A DNA stretch of 64,000 bases. Source: Escherchia phage Stokescottia. The translations under genes were made by a program, and so were the position numbers. The stretch lies in the sequence record OR896820.1. The stretch is one strand, 5' to 3'. The first letter of the stretch is position 1. Each line of letters opens with the position of its first letter. A model generated the notes under the pieces. It made no database searches. It worked only from the letters and a program-made list of their open reading frames with translations, and had not been told where the DNA came from. This document shows positions 1-26,847 of the stretch, one piece after another.

Positions 1-630
1 TTAGCAAAAAGATAGTCTTCTGCTTTAACTTCTCGCCAATTGCCTGTGGCTAAATCGCGATGAAATCCTGCATGACCTTGTAGGATTGAGAACACAACAA
101 TACTCCTGTGTTGGAAATGAAATAAGTTTTCTTTAGGACTATTCAGAAAGAATAGAACAACTGTTACTGTCAATTTCTCAACAAATTAATTGCAAATACT
201 GAAGTGGGGTGGCAACTTCCACTTTCACGCTGCGCTGCTGCTTTGCTATACCGCACAAATCCTTGAGGATGGCCGCTAAGCCAGATTTGCTCACCTAATG
301 CTTCATATACTAGCTCATACTAGATGCAATATAACTTACAGAATCACGTCTCGGAGTTTTTCACTCCTCCCGTCTCACTTCACAACCACCTCTATCTAGG
401 TTGCTTCGAGGCCTTACCAGGGTTCCTACGGGACGCAGATCGCTAAGTATTCTATTAACTATTTGTTTAAAAACCAACACGTAACAGTTAAAACAACCCT
501 TAATGGGGCAGCCTAACTGTTCCGTATCGCGGATTGTAAACAAGAAAAATTAGCAAAATCAATTTTTACTAATGTCTCTCATTTATGGGAATATTATACT
601 ATAAAATAATACTCCCTTGCAAATGAAATT

Positions 631-1146
631 TTACTGAATTGATTCCCTACCATATAATTGGCCCCTAAACATCTTGGCCATAGAACATGCAACTTCATAG
701 TTATCATATGTTCCTTTAACTACTCGTTTACGATTAATAGTAAATACTACTTGCCAGTTCTTACTACCAGAAGGGTAAACATGCATTCCTTTCTTATATT
801 TGGTATTTCTTAGATTACCAGTTACTGTCTGATCCCTAAGATTTTCAATACGATCATCGCCTTTTATAGTGTTCTCATGATCTACCAAATCAGGTAAGTA
901 TCCATGATGCATTAAGAAGATAGCTCTGTGTCGGAGCATAGTTCTACTCCCTAGAGAAATACGGTAATAACCATTCCCCGTTGAAACACAACATTCCTTG
1001 CCTGCATTTCTTCCTGTAGTTCTAAATAATTTTCCATCTTCATATCGGAAATTATCTAAAAGTTCTTGTTGTGTGAGCGACATCTTTACCTCCAATACAT
1101 ATATTATTACATAATCCATCCAATTTGTCAATGACAATTTATTCAT
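631..1146 (-). CDS. HNH homing endonuclease (HNH motif plus AP2-like C-terminal DNA-binding region)
   Basis: ORF track; motif LMHHGYLPDLVDHENT...N typical of HNH; C-terminal WQVVF..YDNYEVA resembles AP2 fold; likely true start at 1083 (MSLTQQ). Confidence 0.65.
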   Translation of the reverse strand: MNKLSLTNWMDYVIIYVLEVKMSLTQQELLDNFRYEDGKLFRTTGRNAGKECCVSTGNGYYRISLGSRTMLRHRAIFLMHHGYLPDLVDHENTIKGDDRIENLRDQTVTGNLRNTKYKKGMHVYPSGSKNWQVVFTINRKRVVKGTYDNYEVACSMAKMFRGQLYGRESIQ

Positions 1147-1225
1147 ACTGTCAATTAACTGGAAAGATTAGGTAATAATCCGAGCACTAATAGCCCGGAT
1201 TATAGAGTTCAGCTAATAAAAATCA

Positions 1226-1615
1226 TTAGTCACTTAACCCCGGAACATAGATCCCAACACGGTTTAATTGTTCTTTAGCTTCTTTGAGTATATCTGGAGT
1301 GTACTCCCAAATATCATCTTCCACCTGTAAAAGATGGGGCGAACAACCGTCATCAGGCACACGACATATGGCCAAACCACGTGGATGGAACAAAGAGAAA
1401 TTTAGGGCAACAATTAAACCCATAGCAGACAATTCATTCCAATCCAATTCCCATTCCCCGGCGTATCCAGACAGGAAAATGCCAATGCATGGATCATCTA
1501 TTTGCTGCTCCGGAAAAGTGAAGGAGGCTTGTCTTACCCCCAACCAACGTTGTAGCAGCTTCTCCGCACGTTTCACCAAACTAGGGTCAATCTGACGCCA
1601 ATATACTTGTTCCAT
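1226..1615 (-). CDS. hypothetical protein (paralog of 1625..2053)
   Basis: ORF track; shares ELD.NEL..MGL.ALN..LF.P and C-terminal G.Y.PGL with neighbouring ORF. Confidence 0.5.
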   Translation of the reverse strand: MEQVYWRQIDPSLVKRAEKLLQRWLGVRQASFTFPEQQIDDPCIGIFLSGYAGEWELDWNELSAMGLIVALNFSLFHPRGLAICRVPDDGCSPHLLQVEDDIWEYTPDILKEAKEQLNRVGIYVPGLSD

Positions 1616-1624
1616 CCTGCCTCC

Positions 1625-2053
1625 TTAAGCAGTTAAACCTGGGATCATATACCCGAAACGTCGAAGTTTCTGAATCCCATCATTTACTTCTTCCGGTGAG
1701 TAAGACCAACCATAACGTTCATTAACCTGAAAACCAGGAGATTCACTAGTTTTATAGTTAACAACGAGGCGATGCTTAGCAGGCATAAACAGCTTATAGT
1801 TTAACGCAAAAACTAAGCCCATTTCATCTAACTCTTTCCAGCCGACAATCTCTTCAAGACCCTCCTCTACCTGAACAATTAAACCAATACAGGGGGCCTC
1901 ATCAATATCATCTTTAAAAGCAAAGGAGATTTCGTTATTCTCACACCATATTTTCAAAGAGTTAATAGCCTTATTATACAGGCTAGCTGGGAGAGTACGC
2001 CAAAAGTTAACCAAAATTGGGTTAGCTTCTTTAGAGAATACATTATTAAACAT
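1625..2053 (-). CDS. hypothetical protein (paralog of 1226..1615)
   Basis: ORF track; tandem paralog, same conserved blocks. Confidence 0.5.
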   Translation of the reverse strand: MFNNVFSKEANPILVNFWRTLPASLYNKAINSLKIWCENNEISFAFKDDIDEAPCIGLIVQVEEGLEEIVGWKELDEMGLVFALNYKLFMPAKHRLVVNYKTSESPGFQVNERYGWSYSPEEVNDGIQKLRRFGYMIPGLTA

Positions 2054-2055
2054 AT

Positions 2056-2568
2056 TTACACCTTAAATTGTTGTAGGGCTTTACACATTTCAAGATCTGG
2101 ACTAAATTCTAACATATAGCTAACAGCTTTTAAATCTTGAAGATTTATTCCAGTCCTACCGTTGACTATAACCGTTGGATACTGATACATCATAGCACCC
2201 GCATCGTCAAGCACACACCAATGTTTGAGCCTATGCTTTTCAACGAAGCGAAGAACAGAATTACCCCTAGATAATCCACCCCCGGTAAAATCCGTTGTAC
2301 CAAGAAAACGATCGATAAGGCCTAATCCGGTCATAATCTGAACATTCTCCATCTCATTTCTGACAGAGAACCAAGATGATACTCCAACAATCATTATCGG
2401 GGAAGGACGAATAAAGTCCTGAAAAGCCTTGAGAAGCGGTTTGAAAACCCAGTCACTCCCAAAGAAAATCTTTTCATCATCAGGTGCATGATGGTGGGAG
2501 ATGCTCGAATTGAGCACCCCATCAATGTCTAGAAAAATAATTGGAGTATTACTTATTTCCTGATACAT
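2056..2568 (-). CDS. HAD-superfamily hydrolase/phosphatase-like protein
   Basis: N-terminal FLDIDGVL matches HAD motif I (DxDG[VT]); start overlaps upstream ORF stop. Confidence 0.55.
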   Translation of the reverse strand: MYQEISNTPIIFLDIDGVLNSSISHHHAPDDEKIFFGSDWVFKPLLKAFQDFIRPSPIMIVGVSSWFSVRNEMENVQIMTGLGLIDRFLGTTDFTGGGLSRGNSVLRFVEKHRLKHWCVLDDAGAMMYQYPTVIVNGRTGINLQDLKAVSYMLEFSPDLEMCKALQQFKV

Positions 2569-3364
2569 AAGGTCTATCCCCTAAATGAGCTTCTACACGA
2601 GCAATAAAATCAGGATCACTGAAAGCATCTACCGCACCTTTACTCCAGTAAGGGATACCGCGTTCTTCCAGCTGGTACATCTCACTACGAGTCATACCTT
2701 GATAGCCCGGTTCCACCGCTAGGGCACTATCATAGTAGTTAACAACCATTAGCTTGGCAGCAGTCAAATTAAGAACAGGAAATAATTCCCAGTAGAAATT
2801 AATTACTTGGTTAGAGCAACCAACCACAATGATCATATCTTGACTGGTAATACCATCAAAAATATTGTACATCTCCGCATATGCTGGAGCATGCTCTCCA
2901 AAGAAGATTACATTAGGTTTAACCCATTTATAATCATCTGGATCAATAGAATTGTATCCTACATCAATAATCCGTTTATTGCTACTATTGTAGCTATCAG
3001 CTACAACAACCTCTTTTAAATATCCGTGAATGTGCAGAATGTCACTATGTGAAACGCCAGCACGCTCAATAAGGTCATCAACGTTGGTAGTCAAGTTTAC
3101 TACTTGACCTGGATATTGTTTATACCATTCACCAATACGCAAATGCGCAAGATTGGGTTCAACAGTTTTTAGCTCTTCACGACGCTTGTTGTAAAACATA
3201 TGGGTTTTATGATAAAAATTACCACGAAAGGCATGAATATTACATACTTCTTCTAGATCATAATCATCCCACAGTGCTTTACCACTAGCAGTATCAGTAC
3301 GAAAAGCTCGTACACCACTTTCAACACTCAAACCTGCACCGCTAATAATAATTAATCTACGCAT
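2549..3364 (-). CDS. Sir2-family (sirtuin-like) NAD-dependent protein
   Basis: Motifs ISGAGLSVESGVRAFR, TTNVDDL, HIHG, VVGCS in the canonical Sir2 order. Confidence 0.7.
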   Translation of the reverse strand: MRRLIIISGAGLSVESGVRAFRTDTASGKALWDDYDLEEVCNIHAFRGNFYHKTHMFYNKRREELKTVEPNLAHLRIGEWYKQYPGQVVNLTTNVDDLIERAGVSHSDILHIHGYLKEVVVADSYNSSNKRIIDVGYNSIDPDDYKWVKPNVIFFGEHAPAYAEMYNIFDGITSQDMIIVVGCSNQVINFYWELFPVLNLTAAKLMVVNYYDSALAVEPGYQGMTRSEMYQLEERGIPYWSKGAVDAFSDPDFIARVEAHLGDRPYVSGNK

Positions 3365-3578
3365 TTTTCACCTGTTCTCTGAAGTTTTGCCCAATACTGT
3401 CTAATAGCTCAGCTAATTCTTTATTGCCTTTCTCCATTAAGGTATTAGCAATAACTTCTAGCATAGTAGCGCAGGATTCAACACCATCCTTATAGCCAGT
3501 TTCCCAGTGCTGCATTAATGCGTTTTCCAAAGCGGCGTTTAAACCCTTATCTGGTAGCATCGGCTTCGAGAATGCCAT
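3357..3578 (-). CDS. hypothetical protein
   Basis: ORF track; overlapping start/stop tiling with neighbours. Confidence 0.45.
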   Translation of the reverse strand: MAFSKPMLPDKGLNAALENALMQHWETGYKDGVESCATMLEVIANTLMEKGNKELAELLDSIGQNFREQVKNA

Positions 3579-3750
3579 AAAGTTTCTCCTCTAGTTCCAT
3601 AACACGATTTTCATAAGAGGCACGCAACTTTTCAATTGCCAGCGCACGCACTGTAACCTCATTAGAATTAATAGCTAATTGGGCCAGGTCTTCTGTTTCC
3701 ATACGTCCGTTGTAAATTAAGCGATATTTAAGATGTTTTACGTTTTTCAT
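3547..3750 (-). CDS. hypothetical protein
   Basis: ORF track; tiling with neighbours. Confidence 0.45.
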   Translation of the reverse strand: MKNVKHLKYRLIYNGRMETEDLAQLAINSNEVTVRALAIEKLRASYENRVMELEEKLYGILEADATR

Positions 3751-3959
3751 TCTTGTTCCTCAAACATTTCAATTTCTGCATTAGCAATAGAAAGGGCGGG
3801 CTCAGATAAGCACAATCCCATCCTAGGATCGATCTTCCCTTCGCCAATCCAAGTACTTACTAAACATAATTTAGTTATATCCTCACGGAGAATCGAACCA
3901 TATGCCCCAGAATCCATAATAAAATAGATACGTTCTTTATCTACCTTGTGAACTCTCAT
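3747..3959 (-). CDS. hypothetical protein
   Basis: ORF track; tiling with neighbours. Confidence 0.45.
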   Translation of the reverse strand: MRVHKVDKERIYFIMDSGAYGSILREDITKLCLVSTWIGEGKIDPRMGLCLSEPALSIANAEIEMFEEQE

Positions 3960-4058
3960 AGCTTTCTCCTCTCAAATTTATAAATCAATTATACATAAAT
4001 TTTTGGCTGAAAGCAAATAAAATAAAAGCCAGGTCGACTAGCAACCCGGCTGATTAGC

Positions 4059-5933
4059 TTACTTAGCTCGAATATCCTGATGCTTCACTCTGCCCATCAC
4101 CTCGTGCTGTTTGCCAGGGTTAAATGGACGAGCACCTGGATTTCCAAGATACCCACAAACTCGACGAGTTACTTCAAGAGTTTCGGGGTCATGATTACCA
4201 CAGATAGGGCACTTAAATCCATCTTCGGATGCTATTGTTTCACCTAAGAATCCACATTTACCACAAGAATCCACTGGAGTATTAATACCAAAGTAATGAA
4301 CCTTACTAGCCGCATAATTAATAACCCATTCCAGTGCATCTGGGAATCGTTTCATATCCGGTAGTTCTACATAGGAAATGCACCCACCAGAAGCAATCGG
4401 AGTAAAGTTAGACTCATAATCAAATTTCACGTTAGGAGCAACTTTACGTTCCACATCAAGGTGGTGAGAGTTAGTGTAGTATCCTTTGGACAGAATATCT
4501 TCATGCTCCGGGAAATATTCACGGTCTAGACGACAAAAACGGTCACATAGGGATTCTGATGGTGTAGCATACAGGCTATAGCCTAACTTAGTTTCTTCCT
4601 TCTTCTGATCGACTCTATCCCGCATGTACTGCAATACACGCTGAACAAACTTGATGCAGGTCTCGGACATTGTGTCCACATCTTTGCCAAACATGAACTG
4701 TAGCATTTCATGGCAACCAATATACCCTAGAGATACAGAAGCACGGTTATAGAAATGATCGAATACATATTCATCAGGCTCCAAGCGTAACCCAAAGGCT
4801 CCTGACATATAGAGGATGGGTGCAGCTTTAGCTTGGATGTATTTTAAGCGATCAACTCTCCACTCCAATGCTTTTAACGCTGTATCCACACGTAGCTCAA
4901 GCAAATCAAAGAATAGATCAATATTTCCTTCAGCTTCGATAGCAATTCTAGGCAAGTTTACAGAAACAACACCTAAGTTATTACGACCGGCAGTTTCACC
5001 GTCTTCTGTAGCAGCTAGGAATGAACGGCAGCCCATAGAAACTTTATAGTCTCCAGTAACTTCCACAACCTTATCATAGCTGATATAATCTGGATACATA
5101 CGTTCAGACGTACATTTCATAGCTAACTTCTTGATGTCATAATTAACATCTCCTGGTTTCATGTTAACACCATCACGAAGTACAAATACCAGTTTCGGGA
5201 AGATAGCTGTACGTTTATTGATACCTAAACCATCCATGCGTACTTTCAGTATTGCTTTCTGTACTAGACGTGCTTCCCAAGAAGTTCCTAGACCAAAACC
5301 AAAGGCAATAAAGGGACTCTGACCATTAGAGTTAAACATGGTATTGATTTCATATTCTAAACCCTGACAAGCGTCATAGACTTCTTTTTCAGTCATCTCC
5401 GTAGCCATTACGGATGCTTTGGCTTCATCCTTAGTCCAACGTTTTGCAAACGCATGATTTTTGTCATAGGATTTACGAACATAAGGAGCTAATACTTCAT
5501 CAAGGCGATCTACAGAGGTACCACCATACTGATGGGAGCTAACTTGAGTGATAATCTGAGCAGTAATAGCCGCCGCAGTAGTGATAGAGTTTGGAGTGCT
5601 AATTTCAGCATTACCAACCTTCATACCATTCTTCAACATATCTTCCAGGGCTACCAGACAACAGTTAGTCATGCCTAATGCAGCATAATCAGCATCATGG
5701 AAATGAATATCCCCAATCATATGAGCATTTCGAATCTGAATTGGCATTTCTTCTAGAATTAGATACTTACTCAATTCACCTGCAAGCATATCCCTTTGTG
5801 TAGGGAAACGTTCTGAGGGTTTATTGGCATTATTAAATAACAGTTCTTCATCTGCTGACCCTTCGATAATCTCTTTGCAGTTTCTAATTAATGCCTGCAT
5901 TTCTTTATATTTTAGTTCTTCATTACGATTCAT
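4059..5933 (-). CDS. nrdD: anaerobic ribonucleoside-triphosphate reductase (class III RNR)
   Basis: 624 aa; C-terminal glycyl-radical motif RVCGYLG and Cys-rich zinc ribbon CGKCGF...CPICG. Confidence 0.9.
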   Translation of the reverse strand: MNRNEELKYKEMQALIRNCKEIIEGSADEELLFNNANKPSERFPTQRDMLAGELSKYLILEEMPIQIRNAHMIGDIHFHDADYAALGMTNCCLVALEDMLKNGMKVGNAEISTPNSITTAAAITAQIITQVSSHQYGGTSVDRLDEVLAPYVRKSYDKNHAFAKRWTKDEAKASVMATEMTEKEVYDACQGLEYEINTMFNSNGQSPFIAFGFGLGTSWEARLVQKAILKVRMDGLGINKRTAIFPKLVFVLRDGVNMKPGDVNYDIKKLAMKCTSERMYPDYISYDKVVEVTGDYKVSMGCRSFLAATEDGETAGRNNLGVVSVNLPRIAIEAEGNIDLFFDLLELRVDTALKALEWRVDRLKYIQAKAAPILYMSGAFGLRLEPDEYVFDHFYNRASVSLGYIGCHEMLQFMFGKDVDTMSETCIKFVQRVLQYMRDRVDQKKEETKLGYSLYATPSESLCDRFCRLDREYFPEHEDILSKGYYTNSHHLDVERKVAPNVKFDYESNFTPIASGGCISYVELPDMKRFPDALEWVINYAASKVHYFGINTPVDSCGKCGFLGETIASEDGFKCPICGNHDPETLEVTRRVCGYLGNPGARPFNPGKQHEVMGRVKHQDIRAK

Positions 5934-6183
5934 TATACCCTCCTTCTCTAACTAAGACTACTATTATAACTCATTCGAGGGCGGATGTCAACAATATTTT
6001 ACTATAAAGTTCTGTAACATGATCTGAGTCAAAAAATTTTATTTGCCAACCTCTATTAAAAATTGTATAATCACGCACTCGTGTATGCGATATAAAATGA
6101 TTATCTAGTATCACACATCTCCCGTTAAAAGCAAGCAAATTTTTTATTTAAATGCAATATCATAGGCTTATTTAAAATTGTAG

Positions 6184-19924: not shown

Positions 19925-19999
19925 CGGGGTGTAGTCTAAGGGAGAGGCAGGAGTCTTCTAAATTCCTTTATGCAGGTTCGAATCCTGTCACCTCGGCCA
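19925..19999 (+). tRNA. tRNA-Arg (anticodon TCT)
   Basis: Manual cloverleaf: acceptor CGGGGTG/CACCTCG, anticodon loop CTTCTAA, T-loop TTCGAAT, discriminator G, CCA encoded. Confidence 0.75.
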
Positions 20000-20033
20000 A
20001 TTTTATTAACTGTAACTAAAACAAAGGAAATAT

Positions 20034-20981
20034 ATGTTTGCTACTAAAAACACTAAAGAACTGACTTATGAGCAAAAATTAATGCGTAATATCAAACGTT
20101 GGGGTATTGGGGCTGCAGTTGGTTTGGTAGGTTTAGTTCTGGCTCTTAACTCTTACACTGTTGTTCAAGACGGTACTGTTAAAACCCAGACTTTCCTGGG
20201 TAAAGTTGACCCTAGCCCAGTATTACCCGGCTTTCATATTGTAAATCCTTTTGCTTCTTTCGATACTTTTAGTACTAAAGATATTGCTCTAAAATTAGAT
20301 AAACTTCAGGTTCCTAGTCAGGATAAGTTTAAATCCACTGTTGACCTGACTGTTATGTTGCAGTTTGATGGTTCTAAGGCACCGATTAACCGTATTAATG
20401 CAGGTACTCAGGATCAAGCATTAGACAAATATGTAACTGAAAAATTACTGTCTACTATTCGTGAGTTTGGTAAGTCTGTACCTAAAGCACAAGATTTATT
20501 TGATGCTAAAATTCAGGCTCAATTGCAAACTGCAATTCAACAGGAAGTTGAAGAGTATGCACGCCCATATGGTTACACAGTTAAGCAGGTGTTTCTTCAG
20601 GATATTACTTTGCCACCGGTAATCATGGAACAGGTACAGAATACCAAAGTTCGTGAAGAGCAAGTTAATGCTGCGAAAGCTGAGCTTGCTCGTGTTGAAC
20701 AGGAAGCACAGCAAAAAGTTAAACAAGCAGAAGCAGATCGTGAAGCTCGCAATAACCAAGCTATTGCTAATGAACGTGACGCAGATGCTAAACTGTACGC
20801 AGCTAAGAAAGAAGCTGAAGCTAACGCCGCACTGCAACGTACCATTACTCCTGAGATGATTCGTTGGAAACAACTGGAAGTTGAGATGATTCGTGCTCAG
20901 AAATATCAAGGTGGTGTACCTCAGACTGTAGTTGGCACTGGCTATGATGGTCAAATGATCATGGATATGCGTAACAAGTAA
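20034..20981 (+). CDS. SPFH/band-7 (prohibitin/HflC-like) membrane protein
   Basis: N-terminal TM helix, SPFH-like core, long Ala/Glu/Gln-rich coiled coil. Confidence 0.65.
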   Translation: MFATKNTKELTYEQKLMRNIKRWGIGAAVGLVGLVLALNSYTVVQDGTVKTQTFLGKVDPSPVLPGFHIVNPFASFDTFSTKDIALKLDKLQVPSQDKFKSTVDLTVMLQFDGSKAPINRINAGTQDQALDKYVTEKLLSTIREFGKSVPKAQDLFDAKIQAQLQTAIQQEVEEYARPYGYTVKQVFLQDITLPPVIMEQVQNTKVREEQVNAAKAELARVEQEAQQKVKQAEADREARNNQAIANERDADAKLYAAKKEAEANAALQRTITPEMIRWKQLEVEMIRAQKYQGGVPQTVVGTGYDGQMIMDMRNK

Positions 20982-21004
20982 TAGTTACACGTAATCTTCG
21001 AACT

Positions 21005-21040
21005 AAGCCCGCGTTTTCTCCGAGAGCGCGGGCTTTTCTG
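21005..21040. terminator. bidirectional terminator hairpin 1
   Basis: AAGCCCGCG...CGCGGGCTT followed by TTTTCTG; between convergent genes. Confidence 0.6.
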
Positions 21041-21057
21041 TATTTAAGGAAAAAGAA

Positions 21058-21095
21058 AAAGCCCCTTACCTTTCGGCAGGGGCTTTTGTTTTTTG
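21058..21095. terminator. bidirectional terminator hairpin 2
   Basis: A-run, GCCCCT...AGGGGC, then T-run. Confidence 0.65.
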
Positions 21096-21301
21096 GTTTA
21101 GAACCACACTCTCGGTGTACAGCAACCACCTATATGGGAGGCCAACCTTGACTGAAAATCTACTCTAGGGGGCAGGATAAGAGTAGGCTTAAAGGCAAAC
21201 GGATTGAACGCCGGTATTTGCGTAAACATTGCTGGAGAGCAACAACGTGCTACAGGCATTGGGCAGCACGAAACAGATTTTCTGCAACACATAATTCCTC
21301 C

Positions 21302-21718
21302 TTAGGAGTTATTACCACCATTTTGAGCTTTTGCAACTTGGCTTTGGCAGAAGCTATTAAACTTACCCATAAGTGATACAAGCTGCTTCCCGTCCTCTGT
21401 CTTTGCGAAGTCTTCGAAAAGGGCTAGTACTGCCTGTCCTTCCGCAGAAACCTGCGGTTGTTGGGTTTGTTGCTGAACTTGCTGCTGCGGCATCTGTTGC
21501 TGCATTTGTTGAGGCATTTGCGACTGCCCGCTCATTTGCTGCATCATTTGCATAGGACTCACACTTCCAGGGTTTTGCTGGAGTTGTTGCTGCATCTGTT
21601 GCGCTTCTGCTAAACGCTGTTGCAACTGTTGTAAGTAGGGGTTATCCAGACCCGGCATGGGCTGCTGGGAGCCCATACTTTGATTAAGTCCGTTATTTAC
21701 AAAACCATATTTACTCAT
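21302..21718 (-). CDS. Gln/Met-rich low-complexity protein
   Basis: 138 aa with QQLQQ/MQQQ repeats; clean start with RBS. Confidence 0.55.
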   Translation of the reverse strand: MSKYGFVNNGLNQSMGSQQPMPGLDNPYLQQLQQRLAEAQQMQQQLQQNPGSVSPMQMMQQMSGQSQMPQQMQQQMPQQQVQQQTQQPQVSAEGQAVLALFEDFAKTEDGKQLVSLMGKFNSFCQSQVAKAQNGGNNS

Positions 21719-21739
21719 AATGGGCTCCTCCCCTTAATA

Positions 21740-22732
21740 TTAAGCCGGCAGTTTAGCCTGCAGACCAGCCAGAGTCTGAGTGATAGCACCAAGACTTAAA
21801 GCGATTTGATTAATTACCTGACCGTTAGCACCGCTACCCGCAGCGATTGCTTCACGTAGGCGACATGCATCTAACTCATCCTGGATACGCGCAGTAGTTA
21901 CACCAGCGATCGCAGTCTGAAGCTCACAGCAGCACTCAGCAAGCTGGCGTTCGATAGAGTTCTGGTTAGCACACATCTGAGCCTGAACAGCGGCAAACTG
22001 GTTATTAGTTTGTAAAGTCTGCTGGAAAGCGATCTGTGCAGAATCAAACTTATCTTGTGCACGAGCTATCTGGTTAGCTGCGAAAGATTGATCAATCTGG
22101 CGAGAAAGATCGAACTGACCCTGAATAACGTTGCGAGTTTCCTGGCAGATCTGATTAGACAGATTAGCACCTGTACCATAGATCGTAGTTAGTACAGACT
22201 GAGTATCACGGCTCTGGTTTTGGGATGTCTGGCTAAAACCATTGTTAACTGCGCTTAAAACAGCTCCAGTACCCTGGTTAGCTTCTGTACGAGTAGTGTT
22301 AATAGCTGCTAGAATACTAGCGGTATCTTGGTTCTGAAGTACTGCATCAACTGCGGTACCTTCACCAACTATACCACGTCCACCGAATCCACCGAAACCA
22401 CCGAATCCGCCTGTTAATAGAGCACCGATTAGGATAGCTCCGAATAGTCCCATACCTTCACCACCGAAAGCGCCTGCGTTTGCTGGGTAACCACCCATTA
22501 GGCCAGGGAAGCCACTAGTGAATACGTTTACTGGTTCTTGCATTTTACGTTTTCCATATTTATGACAATACTCATCATCGTCATCTTCTTCATCATCTTC
22601 ATCGTGTTCACGATGTTTCTCTTCGTAGGCTCTGACCTTCTCCCACTTTTTCTTATCTGATTCCTCGTGACGGTGCAGTTCTGCTGCAACGCTAGCGACG
22701 GTCTCAGGACTCTTAGCTACTTCTTCTGTCAT
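21740..22732 (-). CDS. Gly/Gln/Ala-rich low-complexity protein with acidic N-terminus and Cys cluster
   Basis: Start at 22732 (MTEEV) after RBS AGGAGGTG; DEDDEEDDDDE stretch, GGFGGFGGFGG repeats, CCCELQ. Confidence 0.55.
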   Translation of the reverse strand: MTEEVAKSPETVASVAAELHRHEESDKKKWEKVRAYEEKHREHDEDDEEDDDDEYCHKYGKRKMQEPVNVFTSGFPGLMGGYPANAGAFGGEGMGLFGAILIGALLTGGFGGFGGFGGRGIVGEGTAVDAVLQNQDTASILAAINTTRTEANQGTGAVLSAVNNGFSQTSQNQSRDTQSVLTTIYGTGANLSNQICQETRNVIQGQFDLSRQIDQSFAANQIARAQDKFDSAQIAFQQTLQTNNQFAAVQAQMCANQNSIERQLAECCCELQTAIAGVTTARIQDELDACRLREAIAAGSGANGQVINQIALSLGAITQTLAGLQAKLPA

Positions 22733-22939
22733 TTTTTGACACCTCCTAGTATATAGAAAATGTGTGTCTCTTTGATCACTCATCCATAACATATACTTTA
22801 CACTACCCCAGCGAAAATGTCAAGGGGTCTTTAAAAATTGCCCCTGGATTTTTAGTGGGGTCACAAATTTTGGTCCTCACCACTTATCTGCTACCCTTAA
22901 GTGCCCTATGATTTTCCTCTAAAAAGTTAAAAAATTTGA

Positions 22940-22968
22940 TTGCTTGAATGCTAAATTCTCTGTATAAT
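22940..22968 (+). promoter_or_regulatory. sigma70-type early promoter
   Basis: TTGCTT 22940-22945, TATAAT 22963-22968. Confidence 0.6.
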
Positions 22969-22995
22969 ATATCTATAAATTTGAGAGAGGAACCA

Positions 22996-23517
22996 AATAT
23001 GAATGTTGATGAGCTAACACAGCACCTCTTATCTAGAGGATTTGATACAGATAAATATCATTGCTGGTTAAGTCCGGAAGGGTGGCTAACAGTCCCGTTG
23101 TATGATTTCTCTGGAATGTTGAGGGGCTATCAAACTTATAATCCTTCTGCTCCAAAAGGTCATGGTAAGTGCCCCTTTGAAGCTAAATACTTTACTTATT
23201 CTACTACACAGTGTGTATGGGGACTAGAAACTCTCAATGGGGATGAAAAAGTAGTATTGATTGCTGAATCTGTATTTAAGGCAGTTGCATTACATAATGC
23301 TGGTTATCCAGCCCTAGCAATGTTAGGTTCTTCTCCAGGAAAAGCGTTATTAAAGCAACTGAAATTACTACCCTTTAAATTGGTAGCTGTCGGGGATAAT
23401 GATCCTGCGGGTGAAAAATTTGCTAGAAAATTAAACGGCTTTGTTTCTCCCGTAGATGTGGATGAGATGTCTACCGAAAACTTGAAAAATTTTCTTGCTA
23501 TGAAGCTAAATTTCTAA
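22996..23517 (+). CDS. hypothetical protein (possible Toprim-like fold)
   Basis: Start at 22996 after promoter/RBS; VVLIAES....VGDNDPAG resembles Toprim E...DxD. Confidence 0.45.
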   Translation, partial: NMNVDELTQHLLSRGFDTDKYHCWLSPEGWLTVPLYDFSGMLRGYQTYNPSAPKGHGKCPFEAKYFTYSTTQCVWGLETLNGDEKVVLIAESVFKAVALHNAGYPALAMLGSSPGKALLKQLKLLPFKLVAVGDNDPAGEKFARKLNGFVSPVDVDEMSTENLKNFLAMKLNF

Positions 23518-23523
23518 TATAAT
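23495..23523 (+). promoter_or_regulatory. sigma70-type promoter inside the 3' end of the upstream CDS, driving tRNAs
   Basis: TTGCTA 23495-23500, TATAAT 23518-23523. Confidence 0.5.
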
Positions 23524-23538
23524 ATATCTTATAAATTC

Positions 23539-23627
23539 GGAAGAATAGCATAACGGTATTGCAGCAGATTGCTAATCTGTCGGTTTGAAATATAGCCTTG
23601 TGGGTTCGATTCCCACTTCTTCCGCCA
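23539..23627 (+). tRNA. tRNA-Ser (anticodon GCT), long variable arm
   Basis: Acceptor GGAAGAA/TTCTTCC, loop TTGCTAA, long variable arm, discriminator G, CCA. Confidence 0.75.
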
Positions 23628-23632
23628 AATTT

Positions 23633-23710
23633 GGTTCTCAAGCTCATATGGTATGAGCACCCGGCTCATAACCGGAAGGTACGTAGGTTCGAATCCTCGG
23701 GGAGCCACCA
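23633..23710 (+). tRNA. tRNA with CAT anticodon (Met or Ile-lysidine type)
   Basis: Acceptor GGTTCTC/GGGAGCC, loop CTCATAA; T-stem only 3 clean pairs; discriminator A, CCA. Confidence 0.55.
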
Positions 23711-23728
23711 ATTAAATAGAGGTCACAA

Positions 23729-23917
23729 ATGGATCTATATATAGTTTATGTTGTGTTTATTCAAGATAGAGAATACCCGGATGAATATAAAAAAGGATAT
23801 AGGTTAGCCAGAGCTACATCTGAAGCCCAAGCTATGGATAAAGTGGCGGATTATATGATTACGGTAGAAAACGTACACTATATCGACTACCTTGAAGCCT
23901 CAAAAGTAATTGACTAA
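23729..23917 (+). CDS. hypothetical protein
   Basis: ORF track. Confidence 0.45.
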   Translation: MDLYIVYVVFIQDREYPDEYKKGYRLARATSEAQAMDKVADYMITVENVHYIDYLEASKVID

Positions 23918-23926
23918 GGAGACTAT

Positions 23927-24112
23927 ATGTCTAAGTTTCAAGAACTCAAGCAAGAGCTAGAAGAATGTGCCTGCCCTGAGTGTAGGGGAATTGGTGAAAG
24001 TTCTGATGCAGAAGCAGGAGATACTTTTTGCAATATCTGGGTTTGCCCAAATTGCAAGGGTACAGGTATTAATCCTAACTGCGGTATTTCCCTAGATATT
24101 GAACGAGGATAA
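23927..24112 (+). CDS. Cys-rich small protein (possible zinc ribbon)
   Basis: CPEC...CPNC pattern. Confidence 0.45.
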   Translation: MSKFQELKQELEECACPECRGIGESSDAEAGDTFCNIWVCPNCKGTGINPNCGISLDIERG

Positions 24113-24213
24113 TACCTGTGAAACTAAAAGATTATTATATTGGTTGGTTTGTAGGACTAGTAGTAGGATTTTCACTAGGCTATAATATGTATCAACTAAT
24201 AAACTGATTACAC

Positions 24214-24290
24214 GGGGGTGTAATCGAATTGGCATAGGTACTGGACTTAAAATTCAGGTTTTGTGGGTTCGAATCCCACCACCACTACCA
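24214..24290 (+). tRNA. tRNA-Leu (anticodon TAA), type-I-like scaffold
   Basis: Acceptor GGGGGTG/CACCACT (one mismatch), 3-bp D-stem with 11-nt loop GAATTGGCATA, loop CTTAAAA, discriminator A, CCA; paralog of 28714..28790 with covarying pair 12:24. Confidence 0.6.
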
Positions 24291-24465
24291 AATTAAGGAA
24301 ATAAGATGTATAGACATCCACCTCCGCCAACACGTCGTTCTAGAGAAGTTATTCTCATGGAATTGACTAAAAACTTCAAGGCAACCCTTGAAGATAGAGA
24401 TCTAGGCACGGATGAAGACATTGATTTTATTTGTAGACTATTAAAGATGAAACTGGAGAAACAAC

Positions 24466-24672
24466 ATGGCTAATCCTGAAATTACCGCACAACGTTTCAT
24501 GCTTAAAGGTATGATTGCTGAGGCGGGTATAACTCAAGAGGTTGCAGATTTTCATAAGCAATTTCTTGATATTATAACTCTAGCTAAAGAGACTGGAGAA
24601 AAAGAGCACGGAGCAGCAATTATGGCTATATCTCTTATTAGTCTAGACTTGGCTGAAGAATCTGGAGTTTAG
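24466..24672 (+). CDS. hypothetical protein
   Basis: ORF track. Confidence 0.45.
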   Translation: MANPEITAQRFMLKGMIAEAGITQEVADFHKQFLDIITLAKETGEKEHGAAIMAISLISLDLAEESGV

Positions 24673-24702
24673 CTCCTCCAAACAGAATTTTTAAAAATGT
24701 AC

Positions 24703-24732
24703 TTGCCTTTTGCTTTAAATTTCTGGTATAAT
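24703..24732 (+). promoter_or_regulatory. sigma70-type early promoter
   Basis: TTGCCT 24703-24708, TATAAT 24727-24732. Confidence 0.5.
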
Positions 24733-24762
24733 AATTATATAAATTGATGAAGGAGTTAACTA

Positions 24763-25038
24763 ATGCAAAATCGTGTTATAGCTGCTGGTATTGAAAGTGC
24801 AATCTGTAAATCCTGGGAAGGCTGGGAAGGTGAGATTGAATGGCTTTATTTCTACGATGTAGAACTTCTGCCGGAAATTAAAGCTAAATGTATTGAAGCT
24901 GGCATGGCTCCAGATGCAAAAGCTGATATTGATATTTCAATGTCTGAACTTAAAGGTCGTGTAATCACTGTTAGTGATGAGGGCGAAGAAGTTTTTGAAC
25001 TTCCGTTCTCCTTAACTGTCACTCCTAAGTTCGACTAA
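24763..25038 (+). CDS. hypothetical protein
   Basis: ORF track. Confidence 0.5.
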   Translation: MQNRVIAAGIESAICKSWEGWEGEIEWLYFYDVELLPEIKAKCIEAGMAPDAKADIDISMSELKGRVITVSDEGEEVFELPFSLTVTPKFD

Positions 25039-25074
25039 CTAATACAGCATTGGGCAAGTTCTTTAAAATTTGAC

Positions 25075-25103
25075 TTGCCCAATACTATAAAACTTGATAT
25101 AAT
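25075..25103 (+). promoter_or_regulatory. sigma70-type promoter upstream of tRNA block
   Basis: TTGCCC 25075-25080, TATAAT 25098-25103. Confidence 0.5.
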
Positions 25104-25169
25104 ATTTATCTAATTTGGAAACATATTTAAAAGTGTTTAAATGAGAATTTTTTGAATACTTCTAAATAT

Positions 25170-25257
25170 GGGGAAATATTCTGTAAGTGGTAGCAGAGCT
25201 GACTGTAAATCAGTTGTCATTGCGACTCGGGTGGTTCGACTCCATCTTTCCCCACCA
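25170..25257 (+). tRNA. tRNA-Tyr (anticodon GTA), long variable arm
   Basis: Acceptor GGGGAAA/TTTCCCC, loop CTGTAAA, discriminator A, CCA. Confidence 0.75.
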
Positions 25258-25264
25258 ATTTAAT

Positions 25265-25339
25265 GCACCTATCGTCTAGCGGTTAGGACACCACTCTTTC
25301 ACAGTGGGAACACGAGTTCGATCCTCGTTGGGTGTGCCA
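25265..25339 (+). tRNA. tRNA-Glu (anticodon TTC)
   Basis: Acceptor GCACCTA/TGGGTGT, loop CTTTCAC, discriminator G, CCA. Confidence 0.75.
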
Positions 25340-25348
25340 ATTAATAAT

Positions 25349-25419
25349 TGGGGTACGCATAGGTTGCAAATGGGCCTCCAAAACCCATGAAAAGGTTTCG
25401 AATACCTTTACCCCTGCCA
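25349..25419 (+). tRNA. tRNA-Trp-like (anticodon CCA), compact D-arm
   Basis: 71 nt; T-arm AAGGT-TTCGAAT-ACCTT, CCA-containing anticodon loop (7 or 9 nt depending on register), 1:72 mismatch, discriminator G, CCA. Confidence 0.45.
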
Positions 25420-25425
25420 AAATTT

Positions 25426-25500
25426 GCACCTTTAGCTGAGATGGATTAGCGCTTGCCTGAAGAGCTTGAGAGGTTCGTTCGATACGAACAGGGTGCACCA
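25426..25500 (+). tRNA. tRNA-Phe-like (anticodon GAA)
   Basis: Acceptor GCACCTT/AGGGTGC, loop CTGAAGA, two U-U mismatches in anticodon stem, discriminator A, CCA. Confidence 0.5.
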
Positions 25501-25782
25501 AATTGAAGGAGCTGCTGATGCATCCTGAAAACTTCTTTATTTACTGCGCGGATAAGTCGCTGAAACGTAGAATTAACAAAGTCTATCATTATCGTGCTAG
25601 TCAACAGCCTTATGTATATGCTTTTGACGGTGATCACATTCCCCTAGAACAATTATCTTGTGATTACATGATATTGAAGAACTTTGACGAGACGAAGATC
25701 TCAAGCGTTCATAATCGACAGAATCCATTAACGTGGAAATATAAGAAGAAAAAGAAAGGCATCAAATTCTTAAAAAATGTAG

Positions 25783-25811
25783 TTGCTTAGTTTCCAAAAG
25801 TTCTGTATAAT
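25783..25811 (+). promoter_or_regulatory. sigma70-type early promoter
   Basis: TTGCTT 25783-25788, TATAAT 25806-25811. Confidence 0.6.
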
Positions 25812-25840
25812 AATTACATAAATTGAACTGGAGAAGCAAC

Positions 25841-26550: not shown

Positions 26551-26652
26551 AATTCTGTGTAGAGTTAAGTAAACCGGTAGCCAATCAGCTATCATTGCTG
26601 ACATCGAATTCAGCCACAGATACCATTTTCATTAATAACTGAGGAAACAAGC

Positions 26653-26838: not shown

Positions 26839-26847
26839 ATGAATTAT

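What the first reader, a model, noticed from the sequence alone, without database searches (positions are those of the whole stretch)
631..3364. Minus-strand accessory block: HNH endonuclease, tandem paralogs, HAD-like hydrolase and Sir2-like protein
A Sir2-family protein in a lytic phage, next to a HAD-like hydrolase and two tandem paralogs of unknown function, forms a compact block beside an HNH homing endonuclease. Sir2 domains occur in NAD-depleting defence effectors and in phage counter-defence or NAD-salvage roles, so the block is a candidate host-takeover or anti-defence locus.
Basis: partly seen in the sequence, partly recalled or inferred. Interest (0 to 1): 0.5.

Follow-up and report, generated by a model that had tools for sequence, protein, structure and literature searches.

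The report
T5-type phage sirtuin–phosphatase early operon
This is the well-conserved but functionally untested early operon of T5-like phages that encodes a zinc-less CobB-like sirtuin, a HAD phosphatase and two copies of an orphan acidic protein, with an unrelated mobile HNH endonuclease gene inserted beside it; it is a known gene neighbourhood, not a new one.

Summary
Window 631-3364 (minus strand) holds five real genes: an HNH endonuclease, two DUF7415 paralogs, a HAD_SAK_2 phosphatase and a Sir2-family protein. The window is a T5-like phage, and the block is the T5.102-T5.107 region, present in about 460 sequenced relatives.

The functional unit is larger than reported. It is a seven-gene early operon (about 4016 to 1178) that also includes three small upstream ORFs. 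The HNH gene is a separate mobile cassette with its own promoter, found in only 42 relatives.

- **Sir2:** it keeps every catalytic residue (N94, D96, H113) and the class III Tyr-x-x-Arg pocket. It has lost the zinc-binding cysteines. It resembles CobB/SIRT5, not defence NADases.
- **Prior literature:** the sirtuin + HAD pairing "typified by phage SP15" was already described in 2022 and predicted to be NAD-dependent RNA repair. No experiments exist.

New nuances from this work:
- DUF7415, not HAD, is the constant partner of Sir2 in T5-like phages, and it has no structural relative.
- A HAD homologue also sits in a NARP1-like NAD-rebuilding operon.
- Phage DT57C lives without Sir2 and HAD.

Verdict: already known as a gene neighbourhood, with the function still open. 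Interest is moderate to low.

The parts
3988..4016 (-). Promoter-like site of the operon: -35-like TTGCTT (4016-4011), 17-nt spacer, perfect -10 TATAAT (3993-3988). It is followed by an AGGAG ribosome-binding site and the ATG at 3959.
   Evidence: Read from the sequence. It lies just after the nrdD terminator hairpin at 4051-4027. It is at the same place as the promoter annotated in T5 between nrdD and T5.100. The -35 matches only 3 of 6 positions, so the automatic scan did not list it.
3747..3959 (-). Small ORF, 70 aa, first gene of the operon, function unknown.
   Evidence: phrog_20147, E=1.5e-36; no Pfam hit.
3547..3750 (-). Small ORF, 67 aa, function unknown; overlaps the previous gene by 4 nt.
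   Evidence: phrog_5236, E=3.7e-46; no Pfam hit.
3357..3578 (-). Small ORF, 73 aa, function unknown; overlaps the Sir2 start by 8 nt.
   Evidence: phrog_5827, E=7e-31; no Pfam hit.
2549..3364 (-). Sirtuin, 271 aa, the T5.102 homologue. It belongs to a phage-specific clade that is CobB-like (class III) and lacks the zinc site.
   Evidence: - Pfam SIR2, E=4e-25; phrog_2162, E=6e-120.
- Closest solved relative by sequence is E. coli CobB, 1s5p, E=1e-17.
- AlphaFold2 model has mean pLDDT 90.3. Foldseek top hits are CobB, Sir2Af and SIRT5.
- Invariant residues in 38 clade members: F57, Y58, R61, R62, T93, N94, V95, D96, H113, G114. There is no Cys4 set.
2056..2568 (-). HAD-superfamily phosphatase, 170 aa, the T5.105 homologue. 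It overlaps the end of Sir2 by 20 nt.
   Evidence: - Pfam HAD_SAK_2, E=7.5e-20.
- Invariant in 23 homologues: F-L-D14-I-D16-G-V-L-N (motif I), G62/S64/S65/W66/F67 (motif II), R101-G102, D121 (D122 nearly invariant).
- It is mislabelled 'Sir2' by PHROG 18062 and in many database records.
1625..2053 (-). DUF7415 paralog B, 142 aa, the T5.106 homologue. It consists of two DUF7415 units in tandem.
   Evidence: - Pfam PF24187, E=1.5e-35, two matched stretches. Each half matches the model on its own.
- AlphaFold2 model has mean pLDDT 90.6.
- pI 4.9.
1226..1615 (-). DUF7415 paralog A, 129 aa, the T5.107 homologue; last gene of the operon.
   Evidence: Pfam PF24187, E=1.5e-31. It is 32% identical to paralog B. 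pI 4.6.
1178..1200 (-). Hairpin after the last operon gene: ATCCGGGC, 7-nt loop, GCTCGGAT. It sits at the place of the T5 rho-independent terminator, but the T-tract is poor.
   Evidence: Read from the sequence. Position compared with T5 and DT57C in the alignment and with the T5 terminator annotation.
631..1131 (-). Mobile HNH endonuclease cassette: own promoter at 1131-1103, a GGAGG Shine-Dalgarno, a likely start codon at ATG 1083, stop at 631. It is not part of the operon.
   Evidence: - Pfam HNH_3, E=3e-9; phrog_99, E=2e-40.
- Promoter from the scan; start context from the sequence.
- Absent at this site in T5 and DT57C.
- Present in 42 records against 463 with the block, always one copy, and 91-98% identical across two genera.

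Best explanation
**What it is.** The block is the distal part of a seven-gene early operon of a T5-like phage (T5.100-T5.107). An unrelated homing-type HNH cassette is inserted downstream of it.

**Most likely function.** The operon is a dispensable, NAD-consuming accessory module that cleans up phosphorylated RNA ends or their ADP-ribose by-products. That would be counter-defence RNA repair.

**Proposed steps, all inferred from sequence and context:**
1. The zinc-less, CobB-like sirtuin binds NAD+ and transfers ADP-ribose to an anionic acceptor held by its invariant Tyr58/Arg61 pocket, releasing nicotinamide. The proposed acceptor is a 2'-phosphate on broken or religated RNA, as in the KptA/Tpt1 reaction.
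2. The HAD phosphatase removes a phosphomonoester. This could be a terminal RNA 2'/3'-phosphate or the phosphate of ADP-ribose-1''-phosphate derived from the sirtuin's product.
3. The two acidic DUF7415 proteins have no candidate catalytic residues. They most likely act as protein-binding partners or adaptors, or as separate inhibitors.

**Shown here:** gene identities, intact catalytic motifs, operon layout, distribution and gene contexts. No chemistry has been shown.
For: **Published prediction.** The sirtuin + SAK-type HAD neighbourhood 'typified by Escherichia phage SP15' is described and read as KptA-like RNA repair in PMC9503650. SP15 is 95.6% identical to this window across the block.

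**RNA-repair context in other phage families.** Orthologous sirtuins (57-64% identity) in Vequintavirinae- and Mydovirus-like phages sit inside Metallophos / T4-type RNA ligase 1 / cREC / AAA_33 kinase clusters, with a protein that Iyer et al. class as MazG a little downstream but that gave no Pfam hit here. The ligase, kinase and phosphoesterase are seen in 11 loci and cREC in 8 of them; Pfam confirms the first four domains.

**Enzymes look active.**
- Sirtuin: the GAGxS...FR motif is nearly invariant; N94, D96 and H113 are invariant. Y58 and R61 align to CobB Y92 and R95, the class III pocket for an anionic group.
- HAD: the DxD nucleophile and motifs II and IV are invariant. Pfam names the family as the HAD domain of Swiss Army Knife RNA repair proteins.

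**Layout.** The genes are tightly packed: four of the six junctions overlap by 4 to 32 nt and the other two have gaps of 2 and 9 nt. They lie behind one promoter.

**Possible substrates.** The phage carries 21 tRNA genes.

**Accessory status.** DT57C lacks functional Sir2 and HAD yet is a viable phage.
Against: - No RNA ligase, polynucleotide kinase or cyclic phosphodiesterase homologue was detected in the 64-kb window, and none is annotated in T5 at 55-80 kb. A 2'-phosphate-generating ligation step therefore has no phage-encoded source.
- No sirtuin has been shown to use a phosphate acceptor.
- The closest relatives by sequence and predicted fold are protein deacylases.
- DUF7415 proteins are uniformly acidic, pI 4.2-5.2, which argues against RNA binding. 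They persist in DT57C without Sir2 and HAD.
- A HAD homologue lies in a NARP1-like NAD operon rather than an RNA-repair operon. Most distant HAD loci show neither context.
Confidence: 0.4

Rival explanations
1. The sirtuin is a protein deacylase or protein ADP-ribosyltransferase used for host takeover. Like CobB/SIRT5, it would remove acetyl or acidic acyl groups from host or phage proteins, or ADP-ribosylate them, early in infection. HAD and DUF7415 would serve unrelated or auxiliary roles.
For: - The best sequence match (CobB 1s5p, E=1e-17) and the best fold matches (CobB, Sir2Af, SIRT5; TM 0.7-0.85) are all deacylases.
- All deacylase catalytic residues are invariant, as is the Tyr-x-x-Arg pair aligned to CobB Y92/R95, which from established knowledge marks desuccinylases.
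- Early expression would suit takeover.
Against: - The Cys4 zinc module, a defining structural part of deacylase sirtuins, is absent in all 38 clade members.
- NCBIfam CobB models score far below their cut-offs, 100 bits against 243.
- The conserved genomic partners across phage families are RNA-end and NAD enzymes, not protein-modification genes.
Confidence: 0.2
2. The module works on small NAD-derived molecules to counter NAD-centred immunity. The HAD would dephosphorylate ADP-ribose phosphates such as ADPR-1''-P made by RES-type defences. The sirtuin would process or exchange NAD/ADPR derivatives. Together they would feed host or phage NAD+ resynthesis.
For: - A HAD_SAK_2 homologue (38% identity) in Serratia phage ChuuTotoro directly precedes a Prs-like gene and is followed by a NAPRTase-like gene; this is the domain pair of NARP1.
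- Prs-like and/or NAPRTase-like genes lie within about 6 kb of the sirtuin in 8 Mydovirus-like loci. In L149 the pair lies just upstream of the sirtuin (about 1.5 kb), and in L152 a NAPRTase-like gene is the next gene upstream.
- A phosphatase added to NARP1 that converts ADPR-1P to ADPR is an experimentally shown phage counter-defence, although that enzyme is a Macro domain (bioRxiv 10.64898/2026.01.28.702374).
Against: - This window has no Prs-like or NAPRTase-like gene, so the phage itself could not complete NAD reconstitution.
- The known ADPR-1P phosphatase is a Macro domain, not a HAD.
- No reaction of this kind is known for sirtuins.
- The HAD/NARP1 adjacency was seen in few loci.
Confidence: 0.2
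3. The sirtuin is an NAD-depleting toxin used for host shut-off or superinfection exclusion. The DUF7415 proteins would be its inhibitors, in an antitoxin-like arrangement.
For: - Sir2 and DUF7415 are invariably adjacent in T5-like lineages.
- DUF7415 proteins are small, acidic and apparently non-enzymatic, as many protein inhibitors are.
Against: - There is no similarity to defence NADase Sir2 families.
- T5-like phages depend on NAD+ for their own NAD-dependent DNA ligase.
- DUF7415 is kept in DT57C after loss of Sir2.
- Half-size DUF7415 genes occur in T4-like phages without any Sir2 nearby.
Confidence: 0.05

Closest known systems
Phage 'RNA-repair' sirtuin clade, SP15-type neighbourhood (Iyer, Burroughs, Anantharaman & Aravind 2022, Viruses 14:1977)
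   Same: - It is the same genes. The window is 95.6% identical to SP15 across the block.
- A sirtuin is followed by a Swiss-Army-Knife-type HAD phosphatase.
- There is no Macro-domain partner.
- It belongs to the same sirtuin clade that sits with RNA ligase, kinase and cREC genes in V5- and Mydo-type phages.
   Different: - The paper's text does not mention the DUF7415 pair. Here DUF7415 is the partner present in every T5-like lineage examined, including those without HAD.
- The function remains a prediction with no experiment.
E. coli CobB / human SIRT5 (class III sirtuin deacylases)
   Same: - Closest sequence and predicted fold.
- The GAGxS NAD motif is present.
- N94/D96/H113 align to CobB N130/D132/H147, and Y58/R61 align to Y92/R95.
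   Different: - No zinc-binding cysteines, although the small beta module is kept in the model.
- Scores far below the NCBIfam CobB cut-offs.
- Confined to phage genomes among the matches that carry a source name.
KptA/Tpt1 RNA 2'-phosphotransferase
   Same: The proposed chemistry is the same: NAD+-dependent removal of an RNA 2'-phosphate, with release of nicotinamide and ADP-ribose cyclic phosphate. This is a functional analogy taken from PMC9503650.
   Different: It is not homologous, because the fold differs. No activity data exist. T5-like phages lack a ligase that would create the 2'-phosphate junction.
T4 polynucleotide kinase-phosphatase (HAD-type 3'-phosphatase domain) and NARP1-AP phosphatase Adpp
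   Same: - The HAD protein has the DxD acid-phosphatase motif set, as the T4 Pnkp phosphatase domain does (established knowledge).
- Like Adpp, a homologue is appended to a NARP1-like operon.
   Different: It is a stand-alone 170-aa protein with no kinase domain. Adpp is a Macro domain, not a HAD. The substrate is unknown.
Defence-associated Sir2 NADases (ThsA, DSR1/2, SIR2-HerA)
   Same: They share the Sir2 superfamily Rossmann fold and use of NAD+.
   Different: - No PADLOC model matches at E<=0.01.
- None of the top 50 PDB fold matches is a defence Sir2.
- There is no sensor domain and no partner ATPase.
Free-standing HNH homing endonucleases of T5-like phages (e.g. T5 hegI, hegJ)
   Same: - HNH_3 domain with an intact DH...N...N motif.
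- Own promoter.
- Intergenic insertion and patchy distribution.
   Different: It sits at a site that is empty in T5 itself. Its target site is unknown.

Membership tests
Sir2/sirtuin superfamily (PF02146) | Profile match above Pfam's gathering score | tested here: met
   89.2 bits against a cut-off of 24, E=4e-25, covering 178 of 180 profile positions.
Sir2/sirtuin superfamily (PF02146) | NAD-binding GAGxS...SGIxxFR motif, catalytic Asn/Asp (TQNID-type motif) and catalytic His (HG) | tested here: met
   GAGLSVESGVRAFR is nearly invariant. T93-N94-V95-D96 and H113-G114 are invariant in 38 clade members. They align to CobB N130, D132 and H147.
Canonical sirtuin deacylases (CobB / SIRT5 class III) | Cys4 zinc-binding module | tested here: not met
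   There are no conserved cysteines between H113 and K149 in any of the 38 sequences. CobB's cysteines align to non-Cys residues.
Canonical sirtuin deacylases (CobB / SIRT5 class III) | Tyr-x-x-Arg pair that binds the acidic acyl group | tested here: met
   Y58 and R61 are invariant and align to CobB Y92 and R95 (numbering checked against the 6rxm A76G and I131C variants).
Canonical sirtuin deacylases (CobB / SIRT5 class III) | NCBIfam CobB equivalog or subfamily score cut-off | tested here: not met
   The best model, NF001753, scores 100 bits against a cut-off of 243; NF040867 scores 90 against 320.
Canonical sirtuin deacylases (CobB / SIRT5 class III) | NAD-dependent lysine deacylase activity | not testable with these tools
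   This needs an enzyme assay.
Defence-system Sir2 NADases (Thoeris ThsA, DSR1/2, SIR2-HerA, SIR2-Ago) | Match to the PADLOC models of defence-system proteins, or a closest fold among them | tested here: not met
   No PADLOC hits at E<=0.01. The top 50 Foldseek PDB hits are all deacylase-type sirtuins.
Phage RNA-repair sirtuin neighbourhood, SP15 type (Iyer et al. 2022) | Sirtuin of the phage clade next to a SAK-type HAD phosphatase, with no Macro-domain partner | tested here: met
   Sir2 is 96.3% identical to the SP15 protein. HAD_SAK_2 overlaps its 3' end. No Macro domain is found in any of the eight proteins scanned: the seven operon genes and the HNH endonuclease.
Phage RNA-repair sirtuin neighbourhood, SP15 type (Iyer et al. 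2022) | RNA 2'-phosphotransferase (KptA-like) activity | not testable with these tools
   This is a prediction only. The literature searches for follow-up work and for these T5 genes found no experimental paper.
HAD superfamily phosphatase (PF18143 HAD_SAK_2) | Profile match and catalytic motifs I (DxD), II (S/T) and IV (DD) | tested here: met
   72.2 bits against a cut-off of 27.5. D14, D16, S64/S65 and D121 are invariant and D122 is nearly invariant in 23 homologues. Motif III appears to be R101 rather than Lys.
NARP1 / NARP2 NAD+ reconstitution pathways | Adps (Prs-like) plus Namat/Nampt (NAPRTase-like) genes | tested here: not met
   No homologue of the ChuuTotoro Prs-like or NAPRTase-like proteins is found among the ORFs of the 64-kb window.
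Free-standing HNH homing endonuclease | HNH motif, own expression signals, sporadic presence at an otherwise conserved site | tested here: met
   HNH_3 E=3e-9 with the motif VDHEN...DDRIENLR. Promoter and SD. Found in 42 against 463 records, and the site is empty in T5 and DT57C. Actual homing was not tested.
DUF7415 (PF24187) | Profile match | tested here: met
   Both genes match (E=1.5e-31 and 1.5e-35), and each half of paralog B matches on its own.

The most novel reading that the evidence does not exclude
The constant unit in T5-like phages is a zinc-less sirtuin plus one or two DUF7415 proteins, not sirtuin plus HAD. DUF7415 proteins are tandem double-domain, acidic, and have a fold with no solved relative. 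They could be a new class of specificity subunits that aim the sirtuin's ADP-ribosyl transfer at a host defence factor. Alternatively, they could be stand-alone inhibitors of a host immune protein. In either case the operon would be a previously unrecognised anti-defence system rather than an RNA-repair kit.
Probability: 0.15. Interest if true: 0.65.

Novelty: already known. Interest (0 to 1): 0.33.

Why it matters
T5-like phages are widely used model and therapeutic phages, and nearly all carry this operon, yet none of its seven genes has a tested function. A sirtuin that acts on RNA phosphate ends, or on NAD-derived metabolites, would be new chemistry for the sirtuin superfamily. It would also add a branch to the NAD-centred arms race between phages and bacteria.

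The window adds no new biology beyond what hundreds of deposited genomes and a 2022 comparative paper already show. Its practical value is as a pointer:
- DT57C is a natural Sir2/HAD knockout.
- DUF7415 is the unexplained constant partner of the sirtuin.
- The label 'Sir2' on T5.105-type genes in many database records is wrong; the gene encodes a HAD phosphatase.

Tried and rejected
- **Defence-type NADase reading of the Sir2.** Rejected. There are no PADLOC hits, and the fold matches are deacylase-type only.
- **NAD salvage encoded in this phage.** Rejected. The window has no Prs-like or NAPRTase-like homologues.
- **HNH as a functional part of the block.** Rejected. It has its own promoter, is present in about 9% of relatives, and the site is empty in T5 and DT57C.
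- **A structural relative for DUF7415.** None found.
  - BFVD returned only family members.
  - The AFDB library was unavailable.
  - An exhaustive HMM search found only 59 representatives in 1.84 billion proteins.
- **Informative DUF7415 domain fusions.** One thymidylate-kinase fusion on a short metagenomic contig and one 317-aa protein in an integrase-bearing element. Neither is decisive.
- **DUF7415 link to anaerobic ribonucleotide reductase.** A half-size gene lies between nrdD and nrdG in Jiaodavirus, and the T5 operon follows nrdD. The link is absent in RB16, so I left it as an unexplained coincidence.
- **Neighbourhood census of 60 distant HAD loci.** Most show neither RNA-repair nor NAD genes with my seed set. 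A further HAD locus, Aeromonas phage Aes508, was uninformative.
- **Pattern search with the DUF7415 alignment.** It failed because no stretch was conserved enough.
- **Literature.** Nothing was found on T5.102, T5.105, T5.106, T5.107 or DUF7415.
- **The 465-nt non-coding stretch at 96-560.** RNA folding gave z = -1.6, which is unremarkable. Rfam gave nothing.


Full report
**What the window is.** A megablast of window 1-6000 against the phage collection found 463 records, 161 of them covering at least 80% of the query. The best hits are Tequintavirus (T5-like) phages such as Kenya-K16, ECOP18 and SP15, at about 95-96% identity.

In phage T5 the corresponding genes are:
- nrdD (T5.099);
- T5.100 and T5.101, small ORFs;
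- T5.102, Sir2;
- T5.103 and T5.104, small ORFs that are absent here;
- T5.105, the HAD phosphatase, which the RefSeq record labels 'Sir2';
- T5.106 and T5.107, the two DUF7415 genes;
- then a terminator, a promoter and the replication-origin-binding helicase T5.108.

**Checking the observation.** All five minus-strand ORFs are present as described, and their domain assignments are far beyond chance.

| Coordinates | Pfam family | E-value |
|---|---|---|
| 631-1146 | HNH_3 | 3e-9 |
| 1226-1615 | DUF7415 | 1.5e-31 |
| 1625-2053 | DUF7415 | 1.5e-35 |
| 2056-2568 | HAD_SAK_2 | 7.5e-20 |
| 2549-3364 | SIR2 | 4e-25 |

These are, and the PHROG matches are concordant. The two DUF7415 proteins are paralogs, 32% identical with E=3e-21. 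Each is itself a tandem of two Pfam DUF7415 units, since both halves of paralog B match the 53-residue model on their own.

**Anatomy: the unit is larger, and the HNH gene is separate.** After the nrdD stop there is a terminator hairpin at 4051-4027. It is followed by a -35-like TTGCTT, a 17-nt spacer, a perfect TATAAT (4016-3988), an AGGAG ribosome-binding site and the ATG at 3959. T5 has an annotated promoter at the same place.

Seven genes follow: ORFs of 70, 67 and 73 aa, then Sir2, HAD, DUF7415-B and DUF7415-A. Four of the six junctions overlap by 4 to 32 nt, and the other two have gaps of 2 and 9 nt. The series ends with a hairpin at 1200-1178.

The HNH gene lies beyond that hairpin. It has its own promoter, TTGACA-17-AATAAT with an upstream TG, at 1131-1103. 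It also has a GGAGG Shine-Dalgarno before the ATG at 1083, so the true product is probably 150 aa rather than 171.

Alignment with T5 and DT57C shows that the whole cassette is an insertion of roughly 570 nt at a site that is empty in both phages. Its DNA is present in only 42 phage records, against 463 that carry the block. There is always one copy per genome, and it is 91-98% identical even in Epseptimavirus phages whose flanking genes are much more diverged. This is the signature of a free-standing homing-type endonuclease, not of a functional member of the block.

**The sirtuin.**
- *Closest relatives.* A protein search returned 173 relatives; every one that carries a source name is from a phage (one of them filed under a Salmonella assembly), and the longest contigs are phage-sized, 90-155 kb. 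In the phage collection, 999 records match. They include T5-like, rV5-like, Mydovirus-like, phi92-like, FelixO1-like and KVP40-like phages and several jumbo phages.
- *Conserved residues.* In an alignment of 38 clade members the NAD-binding GAGxSxxSGxxxFR motif is nearly invariant. T93-N94-V95-D96, H113-G114 and F57-Y58-x-x-R61-R62 are invariant.
- *Mapping to CobB.* The closest solved protein by sequence is E. coli CobB, E=1e-17. In that printed alignment N94, D96 and H113 align to CobB N130, D132 and H147, and Y58 and R61 align to Y92 and R95. I checked the numbering against the A76G and I131C substitutions visible between the 6rxj and 6rxm sequences. From established knowledge of class III sirtuins (SIRT5, CobB), that Tyr/Arg pair binds the carboxylate of succinyl- or malonyl-lysine. 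Its invariance here suggests an anionic acceptor.
- *Zinc site.* No cysteines are conserved where canonical sirtuins have their Cys4 zinc site. The AlphaFold2 model (mean pLDDT 90.3) still shows a three-stranded beta module at that position.
- *Fold.* Foldseek against the PDB ranks CobB, Sir2Af and SIRT5 first (E about 5e-18, TM 0.7-0.85), with no defence Sir2 among the top 50.
- *Family thresholds.* PADLOC has no match. NCBIfam CobB models score far below their cut-offs.

The protein is therefore an active-looking, zinc-less, CobB-like sirtuin of a clade found in phages. It is neither a CobB orthologue nor a defence-type NADase.

**The HAD phosphatase.** Across 23 homologues of 27-86% identity, several positions are invariant:
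- motif I, FLD14-I-D16-GVLN;
- motif II, G62/S64/S65/W66/F67;
- R101-G102;
- D121, with D122 nearly invariant.

It looks like a working DxD phosphatase. No solved structure is detectable by sequence.

The gene is highly conserved between Tequintavirus and Epseptimavirus, at about 90%. Klebsiella Sugarland-like relatives and several metagenomic T5-like contigs lack it.

PHROG 18062, labelled 'Sir2', is matched along its whole length by the C-terminal half of this HAD protein, and only weakly by a short stretch of the real Sir2. DT57C carries a 91-codon chimera of a Sir2 fragment and the HAD C-terminus, annotated 'Sir2-like (defective)', and such chimeras probably gave the family its name. That mislabel has spread to many records, where 'Sir2 (x2)' appears.

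**DUF7415.**
- *Distribution.* tBLASTn found paralog B in 523 phage records, nearly all with two copies. An exhaustive HMM search of 1.84 billion representatives found only 59 proteins at E<=1e-3, so the family is small.
- *Properties.* Conserved positions are W18, G57, W72, G79 and N85, with no obvious catalytic set. All 27 aligned members are acidic, with pI 4.2-5.2.
- *Context.* In distant T5-like contigs the gene or genes follow Sir2 directly with no HAD between: L003, L004/L005 and L007, and L144 and L147/L148. My1 has Sir2, HAD and a single DUF7415 (L125).
- *Consequence.* Within this phage group the constant pairing is Sir2 + DUF7415, and HAD is optional. The text of the 2022 paper does not mention this.
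- *Independence from Sir2.* Half-size, single-unit DUF7415 genes occur without Sir2 in T4-like phages, for example between nrdD and nrdG in Jiaodavirus. DT57C keeps both DUF7415 genes after losing Sir2 and HAD. DUF7415 may therefore also work on its own.

[quoted passage not shown] They propose that the sirtuin acts like KptA in removing RNA 2'-phosphates. They suggest the associated phosphoesterases either resolve cyclic phosphates or process the ADP-ribose cyclic phosphate by-product.

My census of 59 sirtuin loci from viral contigs reproduces their second type (domains confirmed). It consists of Metallophos, T4-type RNA ligase 1, cREC and an AAA_33 kinase beside the sirtuin; the protein they class as MazG lies a little downstream and gave no Pfam hit here. 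The ligase, kinase and phosphoesterase are present in 11 loci, and cREC in 8 of them.

The census also shows something the RNA-repair reading does not require. Prs-like and/or NAPRTase-like genes lie within about 6 kb of the sirtuin in 8 Mydovirus-like loci. In L149 the pair lies just upstream of the sirtuin (about 1.5 kb), and in L152 a NAPRTase-like gene is the next gene upstream. [quoted passage not shown]

In Serratia phage ChuuTotoro a HAD_SAK_2 homologue directly precedes such a pair. Sorek's group has shown that some NARP1 operons carry an added phosphatase that turns ADPR-1''-phosphate into ADPR to defeat RES-type defence. That enzyme is a Macro domain, not a HAD (bioRxiv 10.64898/2026.01.28.702374).

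The HAD family therefore appears in both RNA-end and NAD/ADPR settings. Most distant HAD loci show neither with my seed set. I found no experimental paper on the T5 genes.

**Most likely mechanism, and its weak points.** I commit, at about 0.4, to the published idea in a slightly widened form. The operon is an accessory, early-expressed, NAD-consuming module. Its sirtuin transfers ADP-ribose to an anionic (phosphate) acceptor on damaged RNA. Its HAD enzyme removes a phosphomonoester from the RNA end or from the ADP-ribose-phosphate by-product. All of the chemistry is inferred.

Weak points:
- The 64-kb window has no detectable RNA ligase, polynucleotide kinase or cyclic phosphodiesterase, and none is annotated in T5 at 55-80 kb. 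The phage would have to rely on host enzymes.
- No sirtuin is known to use a phosphate acceptor.
- The acidic DUF7415 proteins do not look like RNA binders.

Rival readings:
- protein deacylase or ADP-ribosyltransferase, 0.2;
- processing of small NAD/ADPR-derived molecules against NAD-centred immunity, 0.2;
- toxin plus inhibitor, 0.05.

The RNA-repair and NAD-metabolite readings are not exclusive. A KptA-like reaction consumes NAD+ and yields nicotinamide plus a phosphorylated ADP-ribose, which are the inputs an NAD-rebuilding pathway needs after dephosphorylation.

**Dispensability and mosaicism.** DT57C, a viable and well-studied T5-like phage, carries a deletion fusing a Sir2 fragment to the HAD C-terminus. 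Sir2 and HAD are therefore not essential on laboratory hosts, as expected for a conditional counter-defence function.

The Sir2 allele of this window is only about 51% identical to that of Epseptimavirus phages but 57-61% identical to those of rV5- and Mydovirus-like phages. Between the same two T5-like genera, HAD is about 90% identical and DUF7415 about 71-75%. The sirtuin gene has evidently been exchanged between phage families inside an otherwise stable operon.

**Verdict.** The feature is real, conserved and already described as a gene neighbourhood, and its function is still untested. Interest is moderate to low for this window as such. The open question with some potential is what the DUF7415 pair does next to a zinc-less sirtuin.

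Noticed in passing
window 96-560 (minus-strand sense): This is a non-coding stretch of about 450 nt between the HNH cassette and the start (about position 95) of the replication-origin-binding helicase gene. A 69-nt segment (window about 549-481) is identical in this window, T5 and DT57C, while the centre is diverged in T5. It could be a leader or an origin-related element. Rfam found nothing, and the RNA folding z-score is only -1.6.
   Followed up: partly
L154 2854-3126 (phage DT57C, NC_027356): DT57C has a natural deletion that leaves a 91-codon chimera of a Sir2 fragment and the HAD C-terminus. Both DUF7415 genes are intact. DT57C is therefore a ready-made Sir2/HAD knockout.
   Followed up: yes
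window 2056-2568; T5.105 in NC_005859 and many RefSeq/pharokka-annotated records: The HAD phosphatase gene is widely annotated as 'Sir2 (NAD-dependent deacetylase)'. PHROG 18062 carries the Sir2 label, yet its whole length is matched by the C-terminal half of the HAD protein, probably because of chimeras like the one in DT57C.
   Followed up: yes
window 2549-3364 compared with Epseptimavirus and Vequintavirinae/Mydovirus phages: The sirtuin allele is mosaic. It is about 51% identical to the Epseptimavirus Sir2 but 57-61% identical to the rV5- and Mydovirus-type Sir2. Between the same two T5-like genera, the neighbouring HAD is about 90% identical and DUF7415 about 71-75%. 'Short' and 'long' alleles (the long one with an insert of about 27 aa after residue 53) occur in several phage families.
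   Followed up: partly
L011 4980-5213 (Klebsiella phage phiA85) and relatives: A 77-aa single-unit DUF7415 gene sits between nrdD and nrdG in Jiaodavirus T4-like phages, overlapping both. The T5-type operon also lies immediately after nrdD. The recurrence is unexplained, and RB16 has the gene elsewhere.
   Followed up: partly
L013 6001-9217 (Serratia phage ChuuTotoro, ON287369): A HAD_SAK_2 gene overlaps the start of a Prs-like gene, which is followed by a NAPRTase-like gene. This is a NARP1-like operon with an appended HAD phosphatase. It may be a non-homologous analogue of the Macro-domain phosphatase of NARP1-AP.
   Followed up: partly
L155 5001-5954 and L156 175-1128: A 317-aa protein with an N-terminal DUF7415 unit and an uncharacterised C-terminal part lies next to an integrase in an element that also carries a Toprim-domain protein (L155) and an AlpA-family gene (L156). 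I take this to be a P4-like integrative element. It may be a cargo gene of a satellite.
   Followed up: no
window 19925-32068: There are 21 tRNA genes on the plus strand, including tRNA-Lys(UUU) and two tRNA-Met. This is typical of T5-like phages and relevant to any RNA-repair reading.
   Followed up: no
window 2549-2568 and equivalent junctions in relatives: The Sir2/HAD junction is an indel hotspot. The genes overlap by 20 nt here, but they are separated by one small ORF in ECOP18 and by two in T5 (T5.103, T5.104).
   Followed up: partly
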